Shown here: piece after piece, positions 9,851-22,004 of the stretch | How the letters are laid out: each line of letters begins with the position of its first letter | How positions within the stretch are numbered: the stretch's first letter is position 1 | Assembly (NCBI GenBank): GCA_951406725.2 | Contig: OX597835.1 | Span: 9,672,001 to 9,736,000 of the forward strand | Direction of reading: 5' to 3' | Length of the DNA: 64,000 nucleotides | From: Octopus vulgaris | Taxonomy: Eukaryota | The notes under the pieces: model-generated | What the model was told of the DNA's origin: nothing | Databases searched by the model: none | Seen by the model: only the letters and a program-made list of their open reading frames with translations | Position numbers and translations under genes: made by a program

Positions 9851-10268
9851 AGGCGCAGGAGTGGCTGTGTGGTAAGTAGCTTCCTAACCAACCACATGGT
9901 TCCGGGTTCAGTCCCACTGCGTGGCACCTTGGGCAAGTGTCTTCTACTATAGCCTCGGGCCGACCAAAGCCTTGTGAGTGGATTTGGTAGACGGAAACTG
10001 AAAGAAGCCCGTCGTATATATGTATATATATATGTATGTATGTGTATATGTGTGTGTTTGTGCGTCTGTCCCCCTAGCATTGCTTGACAACCGATGCTGG
10101 TGTATTTATGTCCCCGTCACTTAGCGGTTCGGCAAAAGAGACCGATAGAATAAGTACTGGGCTTACAAAGAATAAGTCCCGGGGTCGAGTTGCTCGATTA
10201 AAGGCGGTGCTCCAGCATGGCCGCAGTCAAATGACTGAAACAAGTAAAAGAGTAAAAGAGTAAAAAGA
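9851..10268 (+). mobile_element. SINE family A, full length
   Basis: AGGCGCAGGAGTGGCTGTGTGG...CACCTTGGGCAAGTGTC...(TA)(TG)...CAAGTAAAAGAGTAAAAGAG. Confidence 0.93.
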
Positions 10269-10893
10269 GAGATAAGAGTTCTGAAATTAATATTTCTGCA
10301 TTTACTCTCTTTTGTGTGCGATACATTTTTTTCTTTTTTCTTTTTTTTTTCTACTAGAACGGAAATTTTAATAATCAGTATGGATGCAAGAAATTATGTA
10401 GAGAGAGTGCTAAATCTCCTATCACAGATCGATTCTCGGTTAAACCACACCAGTTTAGAAGCATCCATAATTGATTTTTCTAATCATCGTTAATATCGTA
10501 CGGAAGCCTTCCAAACACTGCCCAGACAAAAACCTGAAAAGACGAAGCACAGATTTGGAAAGATTTATCGAATGCTCTATTCCTATAGAGTTAGTTTATG
10601 TTTCATTACAATTTATTGCTTCCAGCTTGCCTCATGGTGAATTTTAACGACGAGAATAATCGTAATAAGCAGTCCTTCATAAGTAAAGAAAAAAGTGGGA
10701 TGCCTTTTTTTTTTATTTCTACCGCCTTTAAAAGCGGTAGAAAGAAAAATGTGCAATGCGAACCAAAAAAGTGTGCGATGAGTGAGCAACCGAACGAGAA
10801 TGCTACTCTATGGAGCGGTGAGAAGGAAGAACGGCTGGATGTTTGGATACAAGCACGAGAGTGTATTCGAAGCGAGCATAAGTGAAAGTGGTG

Positions 10894-10948
<55 letters not shown>

Positions 10949-11040
10949 GGCGGGTATAAATTTATATACATATATTTATGTGTATACATACATACACATA
11001 GAGGTGGAATATCTCGAAGCATACACATCATGCTATAAAT

Positions 11041-11335
11041 TGTTTTGTTGTTTGTTCCTTCTCGAGCCATGCTTGGCTCCTAAGGGCCGATTTCCGGTTT
11101 CCTTGGCGTATAGGTTCCCCACCTGGACGGGACGCCGGTCCGTCGCAGGTGAGCTGCAAGATGCAGGAGGAAAGAGTGAGAGAAAGTTGTGGCCAAAGAG
11201 TCAGCAGAAGTTTCGCCATTACCTTCTGCCAGAGCCGCGTAAAGCTTAGGTGTTTCGCTCATAAACACACACATCACCCGGTCTGAGATTCGAACCCGCG
11301 ATCCCTCGATCGCACGTCCGCTGTTCTAACCGCTA
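11041..11335 (-). mobile_element. SINE family C (5' part shared with family B, Meta-domain-like 3' part)
   Basis: Homologous to 24860-25563. Contains CTGCGACGGACCGGCGTCCCGTCCAGG...GGAAACCGG and an AAC-rich tail. Confidence 0.88.
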
Positions 11336-11544
11336 TAAATAGTAGCATGCAATTATTGGGCTGAAAACATTTTAGGATAGTAAAATTGGAAAACGCCAAT
11401 CATTTACAGATTTGTGTCTGCTTTGAGGCTTTCCCGAAATGAATTATTTCAGCTACTCTCAAAAGTTCATAAATTCTTATGTCGATATGATGTATGTATG
11501 TGTGTATTTAATATATGTATGTATGTGTGTGTATGTATGTCGCT

Positions 11545-11943
11545 TATTCTTTTACATGTTTCCGTGATTAGATTGCGGTCATGCTGCGGCATCACCTTGA
11601 AGAACTTTTAATCGACTGAATCGACCCCAGGACCTTTTTAAGCCTGGTATTCATTTTATCGGGTACTTTTTTTTCCGAATAGCTATGTTACGTGGATAGA
11701 AGCAAACCAGCACCGGCTGCCAAGCGGTGCTGGGAGACAAACACAGACAGAAACACACACACTCGCACACACATGTACACACACATACACACACATACAT
11801 ATACACGCCGGACTTCTTTCTGTTTCCGTATAGCAAATTCACTCACAAGGCTTTGGTCGACCCGAGACTATAGTAACAGACACTTGCCCAAGGAGCCATG
11901 CAGTGAGACTGAGCCCTCAGTAAACACACAACCACGCCTGCGC
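11545..11943 (-). mobile_element. SINE family A, older diverged copy
   Basis: Retains CACTTGCCCAAGG, CACTCACAAGGCTTTGGTCG and the internal CA microsatellite. Confidence 0.8.
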
Positions 11944-12479
11944 ATATTTGTATGTTTGTATGTTTGTATGTGCGTTTGTGCGTATGTATTCTAAACGGTT
12001 CCTCCTTGCATATATTTACGAAGTATTTTGCTCAGACTTCATATGCCAAGCATTCTCTATCCGGCTTTGGTAAGTTGATAAAATAATACCGGTTATATAC
12101 TGTGGTCTGTTCATTTCCCTGTAGATTTTCTTGTGAGATATATCACTTTGTTGCAATGACTGACTGTGTAACTGCGTGATTTTAAGTGTGTAAACATATA
12201 TACATTTTTATTTTCTTTATTTTTGTGTCTCTTCTTTTGTTATAATCCCAATTCAACGAATTATTAAACAGATTTCTATCTCGTTCTGCAATATTTATAG
12301 GAATCGCATGCCTGGGTTAATCTCCAAGAGAATTAGATCATATTGATAGTATACTAGCATTGTCTGAGCAAATATCTAATATACAGGAATGGACTTAGAC
12401 GAACAATTCAATATAATTCCATTCTAGTTAATCACATCAATATGCCGGTATGGATTGGTATATCATCACCAGCATTTTA

Positions 12480-12800
12480 TGACCAAAAGCTTCTGTAATT
12501 CTTAAAGCTATCAGCATTAAACTCTTTTAAAATATTGATTTAGCAAACTCTACAGCAACATGGAGAATTACATTCGAACATTCCGAATCACTAGGATTTG
12601 CAGAATAATCATAAAATTTATGAGTAAATACAAATATTTGGGAAATATTATATTATCATAGAGTTAAAGTAGAGAGGTGGGGATGAGGAATTAGTTGTAA
12701 AGAGGCAAAGACGATAATTATTCGGGGTTCCATTTGAAATGTTTTACGTTTCGTCCAACATAAATACCAATATTATATTTGTAAACCAGTTGATGCAGAA
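12480..12800 (-). mobile_element. Possible decayed GIY-YIG endonuclease of a Penelope-like element
   Basis: Minus-strand LVYKYNIGIYVGRNVKHF resembles VYKx...YVGxTxRH. Surrounding frame is broken. Confidence 0.3.
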
Positions 12801-13969
12801 TATCTTTTGAACATATTTCACTAATTCCTGACGAGATTATATAATATTTCTAAATGTAATTCTTTGAATATAATTACAAAAACATGATGCTTTTAAGAGA
12901 GGTCCGTGTCAGTTTTATTCAATAAAGCGAAAATTTAAGGTACATAGCACATCTTTAAAGAAGGTGGAAATTCTCATATTTCAGGCAATGCTGAAGCTCT
13001 GCTAGACAATATTATTTCTCGCGGCACACTTACATCTATTATATGATACAACCAGAAAAACTCTGAGTCGCTCTTCAAACAATTCTATCCCCGAGAAATA
13101 ATTGGGAGAAAAGTTACTTTCATTTCTAAGCAAAGAACACCAATTTATTTGTGGTTATACCAATCAAAGAAATAGATTTAGAAGATTACTGCATATTTTA
13201 CATATAGTAGAGATTCAATATTTCTGTTTATTCATTACACATTAGTCGGAACCCCAAATAAACTGCGAGTAACAGAAGAACCTTCCGCATGAATGAATGC
13301 TTTGATTAGACGAAAGAGGGAGAAACTGTCGAGGTTAAAGTGCCTGTATGCCTGGTCACTCTGAGCGTGTGTGTGTTTGTGTGTGTATACATATGTAAGT
13401 ATGCGAAAGTGATTTTAAAAAATATTCTAGCCACCAGTTATTTTTTCCGGCACGTGAATGATAAGAAGAAATTTAGGAATTTAGATACCATTATCAGGCA
13501 CCTAAAAGCCAACTGCATACCTCACATCCTCACATAGAACATTGTGGAGATATCCATTCCATGCGTTAATGGGTCCAATGCGACGTAAGCTTTGTTTAGA
13601 TCTAAGAACTCTGCTAATCTACTAAATTCCAGATCTAAATTATCTATCAAATGGACAAAGTTCTTATATGGAACTAGAAAGGACCACCCTCTTCGGATTA
13701 ACCACGCAGTGTCACAAACTTTGTCTATCTCCTTATTGAATTAAGTTAATCACCCAGTTTCATCCTGATTTAAACGGGCCAAAGAGACGCACTTCTTAAT
13801 TTTCTTTCTTCTTCTTCTTCTTTTGAATTCGGTTCCTTCTCGTTGTATACCTTCAGTCTGAAAGATTTCTTGGAAGCATATCGTACGCTATATAAGTTTG
13901 CCCGACAATTGTGCTTTCACAGCATGAAACTAATAATAACTCGAAATTAAATCATGTGTACCTTAAATG

Positions 13970-14000
<31 letters not shown>

Positions 14001-14306
14001 TGTATGTATGTATGTATGTATGTATGTATGTATGTATGTATGTGTGTATGTATGTATGAATGTATGTATGTATGTATGTATGTATGTACGTACGTATGTA
14101 TGTATGTATGTATGTATGTATGTATGTATGTATGTATGTATGTATGTATGTGTGTATGTGTGTATGTATGTATGTATGCATGTATGTATGTGTGTATGTA
14201 TGTATGTATGTATGTACGTACGTATGTATGTACGTATGTGTGTATGTATGTATGTATGTATGTATGTATGTGTGTGTGTATGTACGTACGTATGTATGTA
14301 CGTACG

Positions 14307-14340
<34 letters not shown>

Positions 14341-14560
14341 TGTATGCATGTATGTATGTACGTACGTACGTACGTATGTATGTATGTACGTACGTACGTA
14401 TGTATGTATGCATGTATGTATGTACGTACGTACGTACGTATGTATGTATGTACGTACGTACGTATGTATGTATGTATGTATGTATGTACGTACGTACGTA
14501 TGTATGTATGTGTGTGTGTATGTATGTACGTATGTATGTATGTATGTATGTATGCATGTA
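13970..14560 (+). repeat. (TATG)n/(TACG)n microsatellite
   Basis: Direct reading. Explains the YIHT/MYVC ORFs. Confidence 0.97.
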
Positions 14561-14726
14561 TCAGTTGCGTACTGGGGTCAATGTAATCGACTAGTCCCCT
14601 CTCCAAAAAATTTCGGGCCTTGTGCCTAGAGAAGAAAAGAATAGGTATTTCGTATGTCTTTACGTTCTGAGTTCAAATTCCGCCGAGGTCGGCTTTGCCT
14701 TTCAGCCTTTCGGGGTTGATAAATTA
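14561..14726 (+). mobile_element. SINE family D tandem fragments (3' part followed by internal part)
   Basis: ACTGGGGTCAATGTAATCGAC followed by GTTCAAATTCCGCCGAGGTCGGCTTTGCCTTTCAGCCTTTCGGGGTTGATAAAT. Confidence 0.8.
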
Positions 14727-15481
14727 TGTGTGCATATTTGTAAGTTTGTATGAATGTATGCATATGTATGTATATATATGCATGTTTGTGTATGTAAGCG
14801 TGTATGAATGCATCAAATGAAAATGAACACAATATATATAAATATAATTCTATGCAAAACAAAAACGTAAAGCCTTTCATGTGTCACAAGTTCTTGTAAC
14901 TAACTCACTGCCAACGCTCTTCATCTGGAGATGAGAAATTTTAATCTGAATCCTTGCCAACGCGAATTTTATATGAGTGATTATATTCAGCTGAAGTCTC
15001 AACATTCCTTATTTCATTCAAATGTGTTTTTCACTGAGAATATATCTATTATATGTGATAAATGTTATAATAGAGAGTTTTAAAATCTGCAGTGGCACTG
15101 AAAAAGATTATACTCACATAAAATAGGATTTTCACTTCGTATAGTTATTCATTTTAGTTGGTAATTACGAGATCTTTCCAACATCTCTAACCTTGAAACG
15201 GCGGCGAAGTGCTTTTCTTTCCCTCCGCTTCCAGAACAGGAATTAACGTTGGGAATGTTTATATGCAGCAGCGATTACGAATGCTTCTAAATCAATACCA
15301 GGTTGAAAAGGCTGAGCCCATTGTCAATAGGTTTTCCCATAAGGATGTTTTAGACGCAGTTTATTCTAGGGAGGCTTCACTTGCAAGAGTTAAACAGGCA
15401 GCCATTATCACAACGAAATGAATAAAACAATTGATAAAAAAATACTTACTCCCTCATTCTTTGCCACTTTATTCCACTCTC

Positions 15482-15519
<38 letters not shown>

Positions 15520-15600
15520 CCTTTCTATATTTCTGCCTCTATCTCCCTGTTTCCTAATCATCTCTTTTCTATCCCATTCATTCCTTCTTTACAACGTTTC

Positions 15601-15636
<36 letters not shown>

Positions 15637-15677
15637 CATACATACATACATATGTGTGTGTTTATTTGTGCATGTGT

Positions 15678-15710
<33 letters not shown>

Positions 15711-15790
15711 CAAAGTGAAGTTGTAAGGTACCACTCGAGTGGAATTATATATGAAAGGTTTGAAAATGCAATTTTAAAATATCTTTATTC

Positions 15791-15833
15791 ACTTGACTGG
15801 TTTCGCTTTTTTAGAAAAAAGATTGTCAAAAGT
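15791..15833 (-). ncRNA. Candidate minimal type-I hammerhead ribozyme, U3-A8 core variant
   Basis: ACUU UUGACAA U CUUUUU-UCUA-AAAAAG C GAAAC CA GUC AAGU. Helix I ACUU/AAGU, followed by AAUAAA. Confidence 0.62.
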
Positions 15834-16425
15834 AACATGTAAAAGCTTTGTTGTGTCAAGTACTGGTTGTCACGAAATATTACAATACATATGTACATTC
15901 TTTGATAATAATAAGAACATTTTAAAAACAGTTTGCAAGGAAATGTCTTGGGAAAATATTAAAAAGTTCATTAAAATATTAGGCACAAAAAATTGCACTA
16001 CATATATACATTCTTTGATAATAATAAGAAAATGTTAAAAACAGTTTACAGAAAAAAATTGAGAAATTATTAAAAAGTTCATAAAAAATATTAGGATTTC
16101 ATAAAAAATCATGTTTGTTTGGAAGTATCTATATACATATCTTCAAAAAGGTCATATTTTGGTAGTATATATATATATACTACCAAAATATGACCTTTTT
16201 GAAGATATAATTTTCTGTGTATATATATAGATGCTTCCAAACAAACATGATTTTTCATGAGATTCTAATATTTTTTATGAACTTTTTAATGATTTCTCAA
16301 GATTTTTTCTGTAAACTGTTTTTATCATTTTCTATTTATTATCAAATAATATATATATGTAGTGTAATTTTTTTGTGACAACAAGTATTTAACACAGCAA
16401 AGTTTTTACAAAGCTTTTACATTTT

Positions 16426-16468
16426 ACTTTTGACAATCTTTTTTCTAAAATAATGAAACCGGTCAAGT
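16426..16468 (+). ncRNA. Candidate minimal type-I hammerhead ribozyme, U3-A8 core variant (mirror copy)
   Basis: ACUU UUGACAA UCUUUUUUCUAAAAUAAU GAAAC CG GUC AAGU. Palindromic helix III ACCGGU, weakened helix II. Confidence 0.58.
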
Positions 16469-16508
16469 GAATAAGCATCTTTAAAATTGCATTTTCAAAC
16501 CTTCTTAC

Positions 16509-16562
<54 letters not shown>

Positions 16563-17204
16563 GTATATGCGAGTTGTATGTGTATGTGTGTGCGTGTTAA
16601 TGTCTCTAAATATTACTTGCCTGTTTATATGGTATAATTATATTTCTTTCTATTGATGTTTGTGGAAAGAAACTAAGACCAGCTTTTAGTGTTATCGTAT
16701 CATCATCCAATATTGATCAGCAGGGAATCCATCTGGAGATTATATTTAATATTGAGAACGAGAAGAAGGGATTATTGATATATATATACTTATTACATTG
16801 AATGATAAAGGATAAGTAAGAAGGATTATGCCTTTTCTATTATCTTATTTGATAAAAGTTATATGCAATGCCAGGCTTACCTCGGTATTCTTAAGGTGTC
16901 TACAATATTGTCTTTTGAAGCAAATATTGGGAATTCCATTGGTATGTGACACCAGTTTTATATGAATATGGGATTTGCTCCCGTGTTTCTAATGCTTGAA
17001 TTTGTTCCGTTTATTGTGTGTAACGTATGTAGTGTGAGATGTGTTATGTCTGTCTGTCTTTTGTAGATCCCATGTGATTTTCTGTATCGTTGTTTACAGT
17101 CGGACGGCGAGTGTAGAGCGTATGTTCGTTTAAGAGTGACGATTTCGTAGTTTGTGTGTTATTGTTGTTACTATCTTAAATATTGAAGTATCAGCATGTG
17201 TTAC

Positions 17205-17540
17205 TCTAGGCACAAGGCCCTAAATTTGGGTGGTGGGGACTAGTCTACTATATTTACTCTAGTAAACAACTGGTACTTAATTTATCGAACCCGAAAGGCT
17301 GAAAGGCAAAGCTGACCTCGGCGGAATTTGAACTCAGAACATAAAGAGAGACGACATTTTTTAGAGAGGGGACTAGTCGATTACATTCACCCCAGTACGC
17401 AACTGATACTTAATTTATGGACCCCTAAAGGCTGAAAGACAAAATCGACCGCGGCGGAATTTGAACTCAGAACGTAAAGACAGACGAAATACTGCTAAAC
17501 ATTTCGCTCGGCGTGCTAACATTTCTGCCAGCTCGCCTCA
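17205..17540 (-). mobile_element. SINE family D with duplicated 3' module (dimer-like)
   Basis: Two successive GGCTGAAAG(G/A)CAAA...CGGCGGAATTTGAACTCAGAAC blocks. Head GCCAGCTCGCC near 17530. Confidence 0.85.
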
Positions 17541-17814
17541 TTATATGCTGTGTATATTGTCCAGTTATAACTACTATGAGTTAATGCTATGTGGCTTGAC
17601 CTTTTTCGTGGTGAGTGTTTGTATTCAGTGAGTCAATTGTTTTAGTTGAATCATTGAACTGGAATTCTTTCACATAAGCTATGAACAACGTCCAGCTGAG
17701 TTATATTTTGCTCTTTGCAAAATTGTAACTCCTGCTATTATATATATATATAAAAAAAAGCATTTGGTCATGTAAATTTGTATCAAACTTAGACGTCTGT
17801 TACTGTTACTGATT

Positions 17815-18045
17815 AAAGGGCAGCGAGTTAAGAGAATCGTTAGCACGGCGGGAAAAATACTTAGCGGCATTTCGTCGGTCTTTATGTTCTGAGTTCAAAT
17901 CACCGCCCCACAGGGTTGAATTTGCCTTTCATCCTTTTGCAGATCGATGAAACAAGTACCAATTAATCATCACTACGGTCGATATAATCGACCCTATCCC
18001 TCAACCCGAAATTGCTGGCCTGTGCCAAACATTGGAAACGATTAT
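17815..18045 (+). mobile_element. SINE family D, diverged
   Basis: GGCAGCGAGT...AGAATCGTTAGCACG...TTTGCCTTTCATCCTTT. Confidence 0.8.
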
Positions 18046-18379
18046 TGTAAGTGGTTTTTATTCTTTGCTTCCAGTCCCCAGCCACGCTTTCTTGAATTGC
18101 AAGCCTTTCTTTAATATCATCTCCACCTCCTTCGGTTCGACCTCTTGGAAAGAAAAGGGTCAATTACAGACATTTCCGTTCTAGTTCCCCATATTTATAC
18201 CTAAACACTTTTACCTCATGTCCACAGTAGTCTCCACTGTCTTGTCCTAGATTACGGTGTCTAGGCCAAAGTCATACATTGCCAGATTGAAGCAATTCTT
18301 ATCCGATTTTATGTCAGAATCTTTGGCCACCGGCCATAGCGGCCAATTCAATAAAATCTGATAATTTACTCCATTGTTG

Positions 18380-18413
<34 letters not shown>

Positions 18414-18624
18414 AAACATTGATGATGTTGCTGTTGTTGTAATTAAGTGCAATTACTGGAAATTCTGGAAGCAATAACTCATAGAATATATTAGTTCAGA
18501 TGCTTTCTGTCTATCGCCATATTGCAAACGTGCTTTTGGAAATCAAAAAACAAAAAAAAATATATAAGATAGATTGTACATAGATTTATATCGAAAAGGG
18601 CACATCAATTATATGTAACTCACA

Positions 18625-19010
18625 ACATACATATGCACACACACACACATATACATACATACATACGTACATACACACATACATACATACACACATACAT
18701 ACATACATACATACATATATACATACATACACATACACATACATACATATATACATACATATATACATACATACATACACACATACACACATACATACAT
18801 ACATACATACATACATACATACATACATACATACATACATACACATACATACATACATACACACACACATACATACATACATACATACATACATACATAC
18901 ATACATACATACATGCATGCATACATACATACATACATACATACATACATACATGCATACATACATACATGCATACATACATACATACATACTCACACAT
19001 ACATACATAT
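18625..19010 (+). repeat. (CATA)n microsatellite
   Basis: Direct reading. Confidence 0.97.
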
Positions 19011-19158
19011 GAGTTTCTGTGTGTGTGTACGATGCCCTTCAACACCCACGACACCAACGTGAATCGACATGTCTGTAAAAGAACACATACAGCCATCTCT
19101 TCTTACCAGCAAGCACACATACACATACAGATACATATATGTGTGTGTGTGTGTGTGT

Positions 19159-19252
<94 letters not shown>

Positions 19253-19260
19253 ATATATAT

Positions 19261-19495
19261 AAAGGCGGCGAACTGGCAGAAACGTTAGCACGCCGGGCGA
19301 AATGCTTTAGCGGTATTTCGTCTGCCGTTACGTTCTGCGTTCAAATTCCGCCGAGGTCGACTTTGCCCTTCATCCTTTCGGGGTCGATAAATTAAGTGCC
19401 AGTTACGCACTGGGGTCGATGTAATCGACTTAATCCGTTTGTCTGTCCTTGTTTGTCCCCTCTGTGTTTAGCCCCTTGTGGGTAGTAAAGAAATA
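19261..19495 (+). mobile_element. SINE family D (Nin-domain-like), full length, in (TA)n
   Basis: GGCGGCGAACTGGCAGAAACGTTAGC...GTTCAAATTCC...GCCCTTCATCCTTTCGGGGTCGATAAATTAAGTGCCAG. 3' part nearly identical to 63250-63407. Confidence 0.9.
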
Positions 19496-19994
19496 TATAT
19501 ATATATATATATAGTTTTGATTTATCCCGCTCATTGAGGTTAGTGGTTTGTTTTAAGGTTCCTCTACGCCAAGCTGCGAATGTAATCCATGATGCGAATG
19601 AATGAAAGAAGTTTTTAGTGATTACGGTAAGGTTTACAGCATGGTGGGATATCTGAAAAAAACAAGTAGATTCCTTAACCAAAACAGTCCAGATGTGTGG
19701 TAGGGACATTGGTATGGAATTTGGGATTACCCAACGCTCAGTACTTAATATGAAAAGAGGGAAGAAAACATTCGGCATAAGAGACCGATAGAATAAGTAC
19801 TAGGCTTCCAAAGAATAAGTCCTGATGGCGATGTGCTCGACTAGAGGCGGTGCTCCATCTTTCAGTCATACTGTAACATCTCTTATCCTTCACTCACCCC
19901 ATGATGCTGGGTGTGTCTTGGCAAGTGATTGTAACAAACATGCAAATTAAAAGTAAGTAATAGTAATAATAGTAATAATAATAATAATACTAAT

Positions 19995-20362
19995 AAAGAC
20001 CTGCTCATTGAAATTGAGAAAATGTGGCATCTCAAGGCGGTTACAATACCAGTGATCGTAGGAGCACTAGGAATGATCAAGAAGGGAACCGAAAATTATA
20101 TGAGAATGATCCCTGGCTTACCATCCCTGCAAGAAGTGCAAAAGATTGTCTTAACTGGTACATCACACGTATTGAGAAGAGCATCGTCGATGTGAGAACT
20201 ATTACTACCCATGTATTTTAATTTAACTTAAAAAAAAAAACAATGAACGAACTATTGAGTTTAGTTTAATGGCCTACCAATGAATACTATGAGTTTCTTT
20301 GCCCTAGGAGTCGGGAAGACACTCGGCAAGAAATGGAAGCAAATTTGAAAGAAGAAAAAAAA
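19995..20362 (+). mobile_element. 5'-truncated R4/Dong-like retrotransposon (second family) in a (TAA)n array
   Basis: KDLLIEIEKMWHLKAVTIPVIVGALGMIKKGTENYMRMIPGLPSLQEVQKIVLTGTSHVLRRASSM*. TAA repeats on both sides. 3' UTR differs from the 1215 copy. Confidence 0.88.
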
Positions 20363-20370
20363 ATAATAAT

Positions 20371-20408
<38 letters not shown>

Positions 20409-20667
20409 CAACAACACCAGCAATTGATACAACAGTATGTATGCATCTATCTATTTATGTATTTGTGTGAATACGCTAGTATATTGTACTGATGTTGGGA
20501 TTTAGATTGAAGTATTATAAGAAGCCATAATAAAGAGCAACCTCTGATTTCACTTCGGAAAAAGACACCTAAATTCAGAATCAAATATATATTTCCTCAG
20601 AAAAGTTAATTACTTATAAATCTAGGGTTTGTTGGATCCTAGATCGCAGATATGTATGCATGTATAC

Positions 20668-20742
<75 letters not shown>

Positions 20743-20840
20743 TATATATATATATATACACATATATGCATGTATATGTACATATATACATATATGTATA
20801 TATAAAGATTTCTACACGTATACATATACATACATACATG

Positions 20841-20894
<54 letters not shown>

Positions 20895-21074
20895 TTATTT
20901 ATGAATGTATATGTATATATGTACATAAATATAAGTGTATGCGTGTAAGGATGAACAGATAAATAAATAATTTTTTGTGTTTATGTGTATATATATATAT
21001 ATGACAGACATATAGATTGATAGATAGAGTGATAGATAGATACATACATACATACTTACATACAAAGATATTAT

Positions 21075-21132
<58 letters not shown>

Positions 21133-21134
<2 letters not shown>

Positions 21135-21310
21135 GTTGGAATTTACAAAAAAAAAGACGAAGACGGGTGTGCAAACAACAAACAGATGTATTAGTTTAAC
21201 GCTCGGGAAGTGGGAGTCTTTTACGTTTCGAACCTACGCTCTTCAACAGAAAGGAACACAGAAATAAGCAGATAGAGAAAATAAAATAAAATGATTAGTG
21301 GCTAGCGATC
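21133..21310 (-). mobile_element. Short (TA)n-anchored element family H with hammerhead-like motif (copy 1)
   Basis: Homologous to 28115-28330 and 49759-49950. Confidence 0.82.
21218..21253 (-). ncRNA. Candidate minimal hammerhead, CUGUNGA core (copy 1)
   Basis: CUUU CUGUUGA A GAGC-GUAG-GUUC GAAAC GUA AAAG. Confidence 0.62.
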
Positions 21311-21739
21311 AATCACAGACACACATATTTAAACACGTATTTTGGAATTATCTACAGACAAACGCTCTGTTGATAAGAATTATCATGTTCTGTTCATTAC
21401 GTATGGGATTTAAATCTCTCGGAGCTCAGGTTAATCTTGCAGAAAGCATCACTCAAAAACTATATTTTGAAAGTGTTTATATTGCCATATTATACCAGGA
21501 TGAATTTTAGTAAGACAATTCATCGCTGAAGAGGTCTAATGCAAACGAAACGTATCGACTGTCTTCATGATACTGAACAATGATCGGAATCGCTTCCCAC
21601 AGCATGCTTTCATTCGAAGTGTACCAATTTGGTTTCTCTACCCCTGAATTTATGACGTGAATTTACTAACTACTCTAATGAATTTTCTTTTCATTACCAT
21701 TTCAATACAAAAAATTCCGTTGATGGTGGTGGGAGGTTG

Positions 21740-21872
21740 CGGCGGTGGTGGTGGTGGTGGTGGTGGTGCTGGTGGTGGTGGTGGTGGTGGTGGTGTTGGT
21801 GGTGGTGGTGGTGGTGGTGGTGGTGGTGGTGGTGGTGGTGGTGGTGGTGGTGGTGGTGGTGGTGGTGGTGGT
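21740..21872 (+). repeat. (GGT)n microsatellite
   Basis: Direct reading. Source of the poly-Gly and poly-His ORFs. Confidence 0.97.
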
Positions 21873-22004
21873 TAGTATTCATATGTTAGTCAGCGGGAGG
21901 CATTAGTTCTTATTTGTTCGATTCGAAAAGCCAAATTGATTGTCGCATATATACGTGTGTGTGTGTGTATGTATCAGTGTATGTATATATATATATATAT
22001 ATAC

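What the first reader, a model, noticed from the sequence alone, without database searches (positions are those of the whole stretch)
15755..16505. 750 bp fold-back with mirror-image U3-A8 hammerheads and a perfect central palindrome
Seen: two diverged arms head-to-head. Each has ACUU-UUGACAA...GAAAC-C(A/G)-GUC-AAGU followed by an AAUAA(A) signal and then (TA)n. Both core changes, C3U and G8A, occur together in both arms, keeping the 3-8 pair. The central 72 bp (16137-16208) is a perfect palindrome although the arms differ at many sites. Inference: a PLE-type inverted pseudo-LTR pair whose centre arose or was homogenised later. Transcription from either strand would give a long hairpin RNA with a ribozyme near its 3' end, a possible ADAR or small-RNA substrate.
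Basis: partly seen in the sequence, partly recalled or inferred. Interest (0 to 1): 0.72.

Follow-up and report, generated by a model that had tools for sequence, protein, structure and literature searches.

The report
Back-to-back Penelope retrotransposon stub
This 800-base mirror-image stretch is the cut-down, back-to-back end of a common Penelope-type jumping gene, a layout already known in animals; its unusual self-cutting-RNA motif is shared by about two thousand copies in the genome and is predicted to be damaged and masked at this site.

Summary
The fold-back, the mirror hammerhead-like motifs and the perfect 72-bp centre are real. It is an old, 5'-truncated, head-to-head insertion of an endonuclease-bearing Penelope-like element. 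Other copies join this repeat to an RT, a Cys linker and a GIY-YIG endonuclease. The U3-A8 core is the family norm (1,995 exact genomic hits), not a local covariation. U3-A8 minimal hammerheads and opposite-strand pairs 100-700 bp apart were published for schistosome PLEs. Both local copies are decayed, and a read-through RNA is predicted to bury 40 of 43 ribozyme bases in the long hairpin. The perfect centre is rare, but 29 unmutated bases at the arms' 7% divergence has p about 0.12; the arms join at a self-complementary (TA)7, so later homogenisation is not needed. One oddity remains: the right arm is a mosaic, matching the left arm inside and another subfamily outside. The scan has reported this kind of element several times on other DNA of this genome. 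Ordinary; low interest.

The parts
15680..15709 (.). (TA)n tract flanking the tailed end, likely target site
   Evidence: both ends of inverted pairs run into TA tracts at nearly all loci printed
15710..15745 (-). ~36-bp PLE 'tail', the true 3' end; on this arm only
   Evidence: exactly one tail in 30 of 30 pairs
15710..16172 (-). Left (main) arm: 5'-truncated pseudo-LTR of the subfamily with an internal duplication
   Evidence: L108 joins this sequence to RT-endonuclease
15784..15789 (-). AATAAA hexamer after the ribozyme motif; no poly(A) follows
15791..15833 (-). U3-A8 minimal hammerhead motif, left copy; loop 3 changed to CA, so helix III is no longer self-complementary
   Evidence: self-duplex +1.1 kcal/mol against -8.9 for the intact form
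15871..16096 (-). 113-bp tandem duplication, junction at about 15983/15984, a subfamily marker
   Evidence: D13; junction 18-mer has 35 exact genomic hits against 1 control
16137..16208 (.). Perfect 72-bp palindrome at the head-to-head junction, with a (TA)7 core at 16166-16179
   Evidence: the variant at 16140-16141/16204-16205 occurs only here, once per arm
16173..16512 (+). Right (inverted) arm, tail-less, ends at the family's second end point; mosaic of left-arm-type inner part and other-subfamily-type outer part
16426..16468 (+). U3-A8 minimal hammerhead motif, right copy; helix II disrupted, palindromic helix III intact
   Evidence: helix II segment folds at 0.0 kcal/mol
16513..16561 (.). 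(TA)n tract flanking the tail-less end

Best explanation
This is a decayed head-to-head pair of pseudo-LTR ends of an endonuclease-bearing Penelope-like retrotransposon, likely pasted into a TA microsatellite in one insertion event, and predicted to be inert as a ribozyme. Shown: family identity, tail on one arm only, U3-A8 as the family core, decay of both local motifs, and a junction at an internal (TA)7 tract. Inferred: the element's enzyme cut the TA target and reverse-transcribed from the two fixed start points (tail end and TATATA site) on template from one source copy. The two truncated products then joined through the self-complementary TA tract, by annealing or by fold-back self-priming, which makes a palindrome with no spacer. 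The arms have since drifted about 7% apart and the inner 29 bp happen to be unmutated. The right arm's outer part was probably altered separately, by loss of the duplication plus exchange with another family copy.
For: Arm matches a high-copy repeat (47 matches from 40 scored of 1,579 first-look candidates). Three of 10 long loci (L101, L102, L108) run RT, Cys linker, endonuclease, AC-rich UTR, then this repeat, and each carries a tail. Pfam GIY-YIG E=1.5e-7 and RVT_1 E=7.7e-8, both above cut-off. Among the first 100 of 1,995 exact motif hits I count 17 head-to-head pairs within 10 kb and no tail-to-tail pair. One tail in 30 of 30 pairs. In 17 pairs printed, both arms carry the same sub-variant next to the motif, and young pairs are 98-99.9% identical, so one source feeds both arms. 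Here the arms share rare variants at the centre and at 15998/16362. P(no mismatch in 29 nt) = 0.117. Private changes in the right arm are at least as dense in its inner part (11 private changes) as in its outer part (5), so no recent copying of the inner arm. Fold predictions bury the motif on either strand. The layout is described in PMC3846280, PMC8557442, PMC4209133 and PMC11167929.
Against: A perfect non-microsatellite centre of this size was seen at 1 of 18 pairs measured, and this junction type at 2 loci genome-wide by exact pattern. One of the two centre variants is unique to this locus and sits at the palindrome's edge, which also fits a later short conversion. The right arm's outer part lacks the duplication, the 11-bp deletion and one SNP of the left arm's subfamily, which a single template does not explain without extra events. 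The centre was not bridged by any read or contig that I could see.
Confidence: 0.85

Rival explanations
1. Same element, but the perfect centre was made later by hairpin- or cruciform-driven conversion between arms, or by deletion of a former spacer.
For: Centre variant unique to this locus in both arms; it ends exactly at the palindrome edge; most pairs in the family have a spacer; DNA hairpin of -33 kcal/mol.
Against: Another shared rare variant lies about 190 bp from the centre. One of the two centre changes occurs in 3 other copies. An unmutated 29 bp is not significant (p=0.12).
Confidence: 0.25
2. The two arms were copied from two different source RNAs by two RTs priming on opposite target strands, then partly exchanged sequence.
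For: Right arm has 3 of 3 inner markers of the duplicated subfamily but an outer part of the other type. The one duplicated copy of 34 with the other type's outer markers (L019) also sits beside an arm of that type. One arm lacks the duplication at L001, L019, L031, L044 and L055 but not at L040 and L051. Such two-template inversions are reported for L1 (PMC11702581, passages).
Against: Young pairs are concordant for sub-variants in 17 of 17 printed. The outer markers are labile: the 11-bp unit differs between otherwise 94-98% identical arms at L003 and L007, and the SNP differs within L031 and L069. Loci were picked on the duplication junction.
Confidence: 0.2
3. The fold-back is a functional hairpin RNA with an active ribozyme, or was itself copied back from an ADAR-edited hairpin RNA.
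For: Plus-strand A>G exceeds T>C 10 to 1 across both arms (one-sided p=0.009 against the family spectrum). A long duplex is predicted (-378 and -362 kcal/mol).
Against: The test is post hoc. The 10 changes are scattered among 31. Fourteen other loci with opposite-strand copies show no consistent bias, nor do other repeats in the window (10 against 9). Both motifs are damaged and predicted to be masked. No gene was evident among 76 ORFs of 110 aa or more, judged by eye.
Confidence: 0.06
4. The perfect centre is an assembly or polishing artefact.
For: No listed contig bridges the centre.
Against: The arms differ at 24 or more sites and by indels. The right half with its locus-specific bases exists exactly in an unrelated run.
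Confidence: 0.04

Closest known systems
Inverted 5'-truncated insertions of EN+ Penelope-like elements (Adineta Pen2a, PMC3846280; general scheme, PMC8557442)
   Same: Head-to-head pLTRs, 30-40-bp tail on one end only, palindrome at the inverted junction, microsatellite target, RT plus C-terminal GIY-YIG in full copies.
   Different: Only pLTR ends remain here; zero spacer; arms are mosaic; the family has a 1.3-1.7-kb AC-rich 3' UTR.
U3-A8 minimal hammerheads of Schistosoma mansoni Cercyon PLEs (PMC4209133)
   Same: U3-A8 in place of C3-G8, short palindromic helix III, extra base after A9, and opposite-strand pairs 100-700 bp apart.
   Different: No G10.1-C11.1 pair; helix II is weak and A-U rich (-0.5 to -1.1 kcal/mol) with one or two extra bases before GAAA; the cleavage triplet differs by subfamily (GUC, GUA, GUU).
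Poseidon_Ac of the green anole (PMC11167929)
   Same: Two fixed RT start sites that define the tail; AT-rich target; hammerhead in the pLTR.
   Different: That study saw no strand difference in start site, whereas here exactly one arm is tailed in 30 of 30 pairs; this family has the Cys linker of Neptune/Nematis types.

Membership tests
EN+ Penelope-like element | RT followed by C-terminal GIY-YIG endonuclease, linked to this repeat | tested here: met
   met in other copies, absent from the window copy
EN+ Penelope-like element | pLTR in direct or inverted arrangement with a 30-40-bp tail at one end | tested here: met
EN+ Penelope-like element | Hammerhead motif in the pLTR | tested here: met
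   (sequence motif only)
EN+ Penelope-like element | Partial-tandem full-length copy with pLTR upstream of the ORF | tested here: inconclusive
   none of 10 long loci showed a direct upstream pLTR; all were truncated or inverted
Neptune clade | Cys-X2-5-Cys-X-X-Cys linker between RT and endonuclease | tested here: met
   C-X4-C-X2-C in ORFs; Nematis also has such a linker (PMC8557442)
Neptune clade | RT phylogeny groups with Neptune | not tested
   no reference RT set was fetched
Minimal type I hammerhead | Core boxes with 3-8 pair, GAAA and NUH triplet | tested here: met
   UUGACAA 65 of 77; base 17 is C 48, U 34, A 16, G 0 of 98 motif contexts and tracks subfamily
Minimal type I hammerhead | Helix I and palindromic helix III | tested here: met
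   6-7-bp helix I; CG loop in 92 of 98; lost in the left local copy
Minimal type I hammerhead | Helix II closed by G10.1-C11.1 | tested here: not met
   weak helix II without that pair; none at all in the right local copy
Minimal type I hammerhead | Self-cleavage as dimer or with protein help | not testable with these tools
   needs an assay
MITE / foldback DNA transposon | The palindrome moves as one unit with matched terminal repeats | tested here: not met
   ends are unequal, junctions differ among loci, most copies are single arms
Non-LTR retrozyme | Head-to-tail tandem monomers, each with a hammerhead, no linked ORF | tested here: not met
   one motif per arm; repeat linked to an ORF elsewhere

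The most novel reading that the evidence does not exclude
Inverted PLE insertions are built by two RTs that start at different fixed points on opposite target strands, sometimes on different source RNAs, and the arms swap sequence as they join. This locus would be a frozen two-parent product, and such events would be how mosaic PLE subfamilies arise. In addition, this family's U3-A8 hammerhead without the G10.1-C11.1 pair would be a working variant, since its cleavage base stays within the allowed set across three subfamilies.
Probability: 0.2. Interest if true: 0.5.

Novelty: new member of a known kind. Interest (0 to 1): 0.2.

Why it matters
The locus itself probably does nothing. The family is a useful test set. 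About 2,000 intact motifs in subfamilies of different age, with a strict one-tail rule and only head-to-head pairs, allow a genome-scale test of how PLE inversions form (self-priming or priming from both target strands), which is still open. It also offers a natural U3-A8 hammerhead lacking the usual helix II closing pair for assay.

Tried and rejected
Rfam scan of 10000-22000: no hammerhead family among the 150 of 160 matches listed; the matches were sub-threshold hits, mostly miRNA-type hairpins on microsatellites and on the palindrome. Idea that the whole fold-back moves as a unit, prompted by look-alike locus L019: rejected, since junctions and flanks differ and the duplication is a subfamily trait. 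Run search: no RNA holder listed. Contigs of four runs did not span the stretch, and a filter leaves records out; read support for the centre stays open. A host gene or transcription direction could not be read from ORFs or from mutation asymmetry in other repeats. A second, degenerate hammerhead-like 3' box lies upstream in longer copies, outside this insertion; by eye its 5' box lacks G5. The paper on dimeric PLE hammerhead variants (PMC5785218) is not held, so whether it lists this exact variant is unchecked. A search for hammerhead + C3U + G8A + cleavage found 0 papers. A search for Penelope with twin priming, inverted and template switch listed no PLE mechanism paper among 15 of 19. A look-up of earlier scan notes by this sequence found none. 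Supplements of PMC4209133, which hold the motif alignments, were not read.

Full report
Observation. The region holds two diverged arms head-to-head with a perfect 72-bp palindrome at 16137-16208; the arms align with 323 matches and 24 mismatches plus gaps. Fourteen of the 72 bases are a (TA)7 core, so each arm has 29 informative bases. The window lies on contig C22 of a 2.8-Gb genome. An earlier scan note calls the genome octopus; I did not test that.

Family. The right arm hit 47 places from 40 scored of 1,579 first-look candidates, most at 86-90%. Longer copies extend upstream into an AC-rich stretch. One locus of 12 fetched, L070, carried an ORF piece that Pfam calls GIY-YIG (E=1.5e-7). 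That piece has 502 first-look candidates. Their loci encode an RT (Pfam RVT_1, E=7.7e-8 on L106) and a C-X4-C-X2-C linker before the endonuclease. Of 10 long loci, L108, L101 and L102 run from ORF through the AC-rich UTR into this repeat or its sister subfamily form and carry a tail; L108 matches the window's left arm up to its tail. So the repeat is the pseudo-LTR of an endonuclease-bearing PLE. The linker points to the Neptune or Nematis type (PMC8557442, passages); no tree was built.

Layout is routine. An exact pattern for the ribozyme-like motif has 1,995 hits against 0 for the reversed control. In the first 100 listed, I count 17 head-to-head pairs within 10 kb among about 82 loci and no tail-to-tail pair. 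In 30 of 30 pairs examined, exactly one arm carries the tail and the other stops at the TATATA site; these 30 were taken from loci already fetched and from the list, not at random. PMC3846280 (passages) describes inverted pLTRs, an optional tail and palindromes at inverted junctions, read as self-priming. PMC8557442 (passages) gives the same scheme. PMC11167929 (parts 1-2 of 4) shows two RT start sites that define the tail, AT-rich targets, cutting and extension of both strands, and a ribozyme that needs protein and is not needed for insertion in vitro.

Hammerhead. UUGACAA is present in 65 of 77 copies and CUGANGA in none, so both arms simply inherit U3 and A8. PMC4209133 (parts 1-2 of 4) already reports U3-A8 minimal hammerheads in schistosome PLEs (about 1,300 hits), opposite-strand pairs 100-700 bp apart, and low activity even as dimers. 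PMC6765202 (passages) reviews the dimer need. For a real motif: helix I of 6-7 bp, a self-complementary helix III with CG loop in 92 of 98 contexts, and a cleavage base that is C, A or U by subfamily and never G. Against a strong one: helix II is only -0.5 to -1.1 kcal/mol, lacks G10.1-C11.1, and the hammerhead-like fold is 2-5 kcal/mol above a competing fold in all four sequences tried. Locally the right copy has no helix II and the left copy has lost helix III symmetry. In a read-through RNA of either strand, 40 of 43 motif bases are predicted to pair with the opposite arm.

The centre. It is uncommon: the other 17 pairs measured have at most 18 nt per arm, or pure TA, and an exact pattern for this junction finds 2 loci. 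The two-base variant at its edge is found only here, once in each arm; one of the two changes occurs alone in 3 other copies. The arms also share a rare change about 190 bp out. The inner arms differ at 12 of 168 sites, so 29 clean bases has p=0.117. Private changes in the right arm are not depleted in its inner part. The plain reading is one source with its own variants, a join at the self-complementary TA tract, and chance survival. Later conversion is possible but not needed.

The mosaic arm. The duplication junction has 35 exact hits and marks a subfamily. The right arm carries that subfamily's inner markers at 3 of 3 sites but not the duplication, the 11-bp deletion or the outer SNP. L019 shows a mirror case. 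This suggested two source RNAs, as reported for some L1 inversions (PMC11702581, passages). Against it, 17 of 17 pairs printed share the same sub-variant in both arms, including private ones, young pairs are 98-99.9% identical, and the outer markers are labile at other loci. I leave this at about 0.2.

Editing. Plus-strand A>G against T>C is 10 to 1 among 31 private changes (one-sided p=0.009, post hoc). Fourteen other loci and the rest of the window show no such bias. I treat it as chance or local mutation bias.

Independent data. Flanks are single-copy in four runs, and one run has a contig identical to 16174-16253. No listed piece spans the centre.

Other papers seen. PMC13282606 (passages) lists Penelope-like families in an octopus repeat annotation, with no mention of hammerheads. 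bioRxiv 10.64898/2026.07.22.740005 (passages) ties animal retrozymes to PLEs. Other hits were seen as search listings only.

Verdict. A real but ordinary PLE remnant. New member of a known kind; interest 0.2.

Noticed in passing
L106 (G000:C1:37514500-37524400), L141-L152: Young subfamily of the same PLE with multi-kb inverted arms up to 99.9% identical and long ORFs; cleavage triplet GUU. Likely recently active.
   Followed up: partly
L011:1370-1410 and other long copies: A second, degenerate hammerhead-like 3' box lies 300-430 nt upstream of the main motif; its 5' box appears to lack G5.
   Followed up: partly
L019:1484-2357: Look-alike fold-back on the same contig whose duplicated arm has the outer markers of its partner arm's subfamily.
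   Followed up: partly
L026:2707-3163, L050:1817-2054, L068:5190-5439, L095:1717-2058: Other near-perfect 240-460-bp palindromes (97-99.8%) that do not match this pLTR, probably MITE-like.
   Followed up: no
L095:1147-1585: Second locus with a near-zero-spacer junction at the same point; its tail-less arm has lost most of its middle.
   Followed up: partly
window 14562-14730, 17235-17490, 17816-17937, 19261-19430: Several copies of a short interspersed repeat around the element, two in tandem at 17235-17490.
   Followed up: no
window 15250-15467 and 16605-17050: Runs X1 and X2 share a flank haplotype that differs by about 1-2% from the assembly, while X5 matches exactly; X1 still holds the right arm's inner sequence, so the insertion likely predates that split.
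   Followed up: partly
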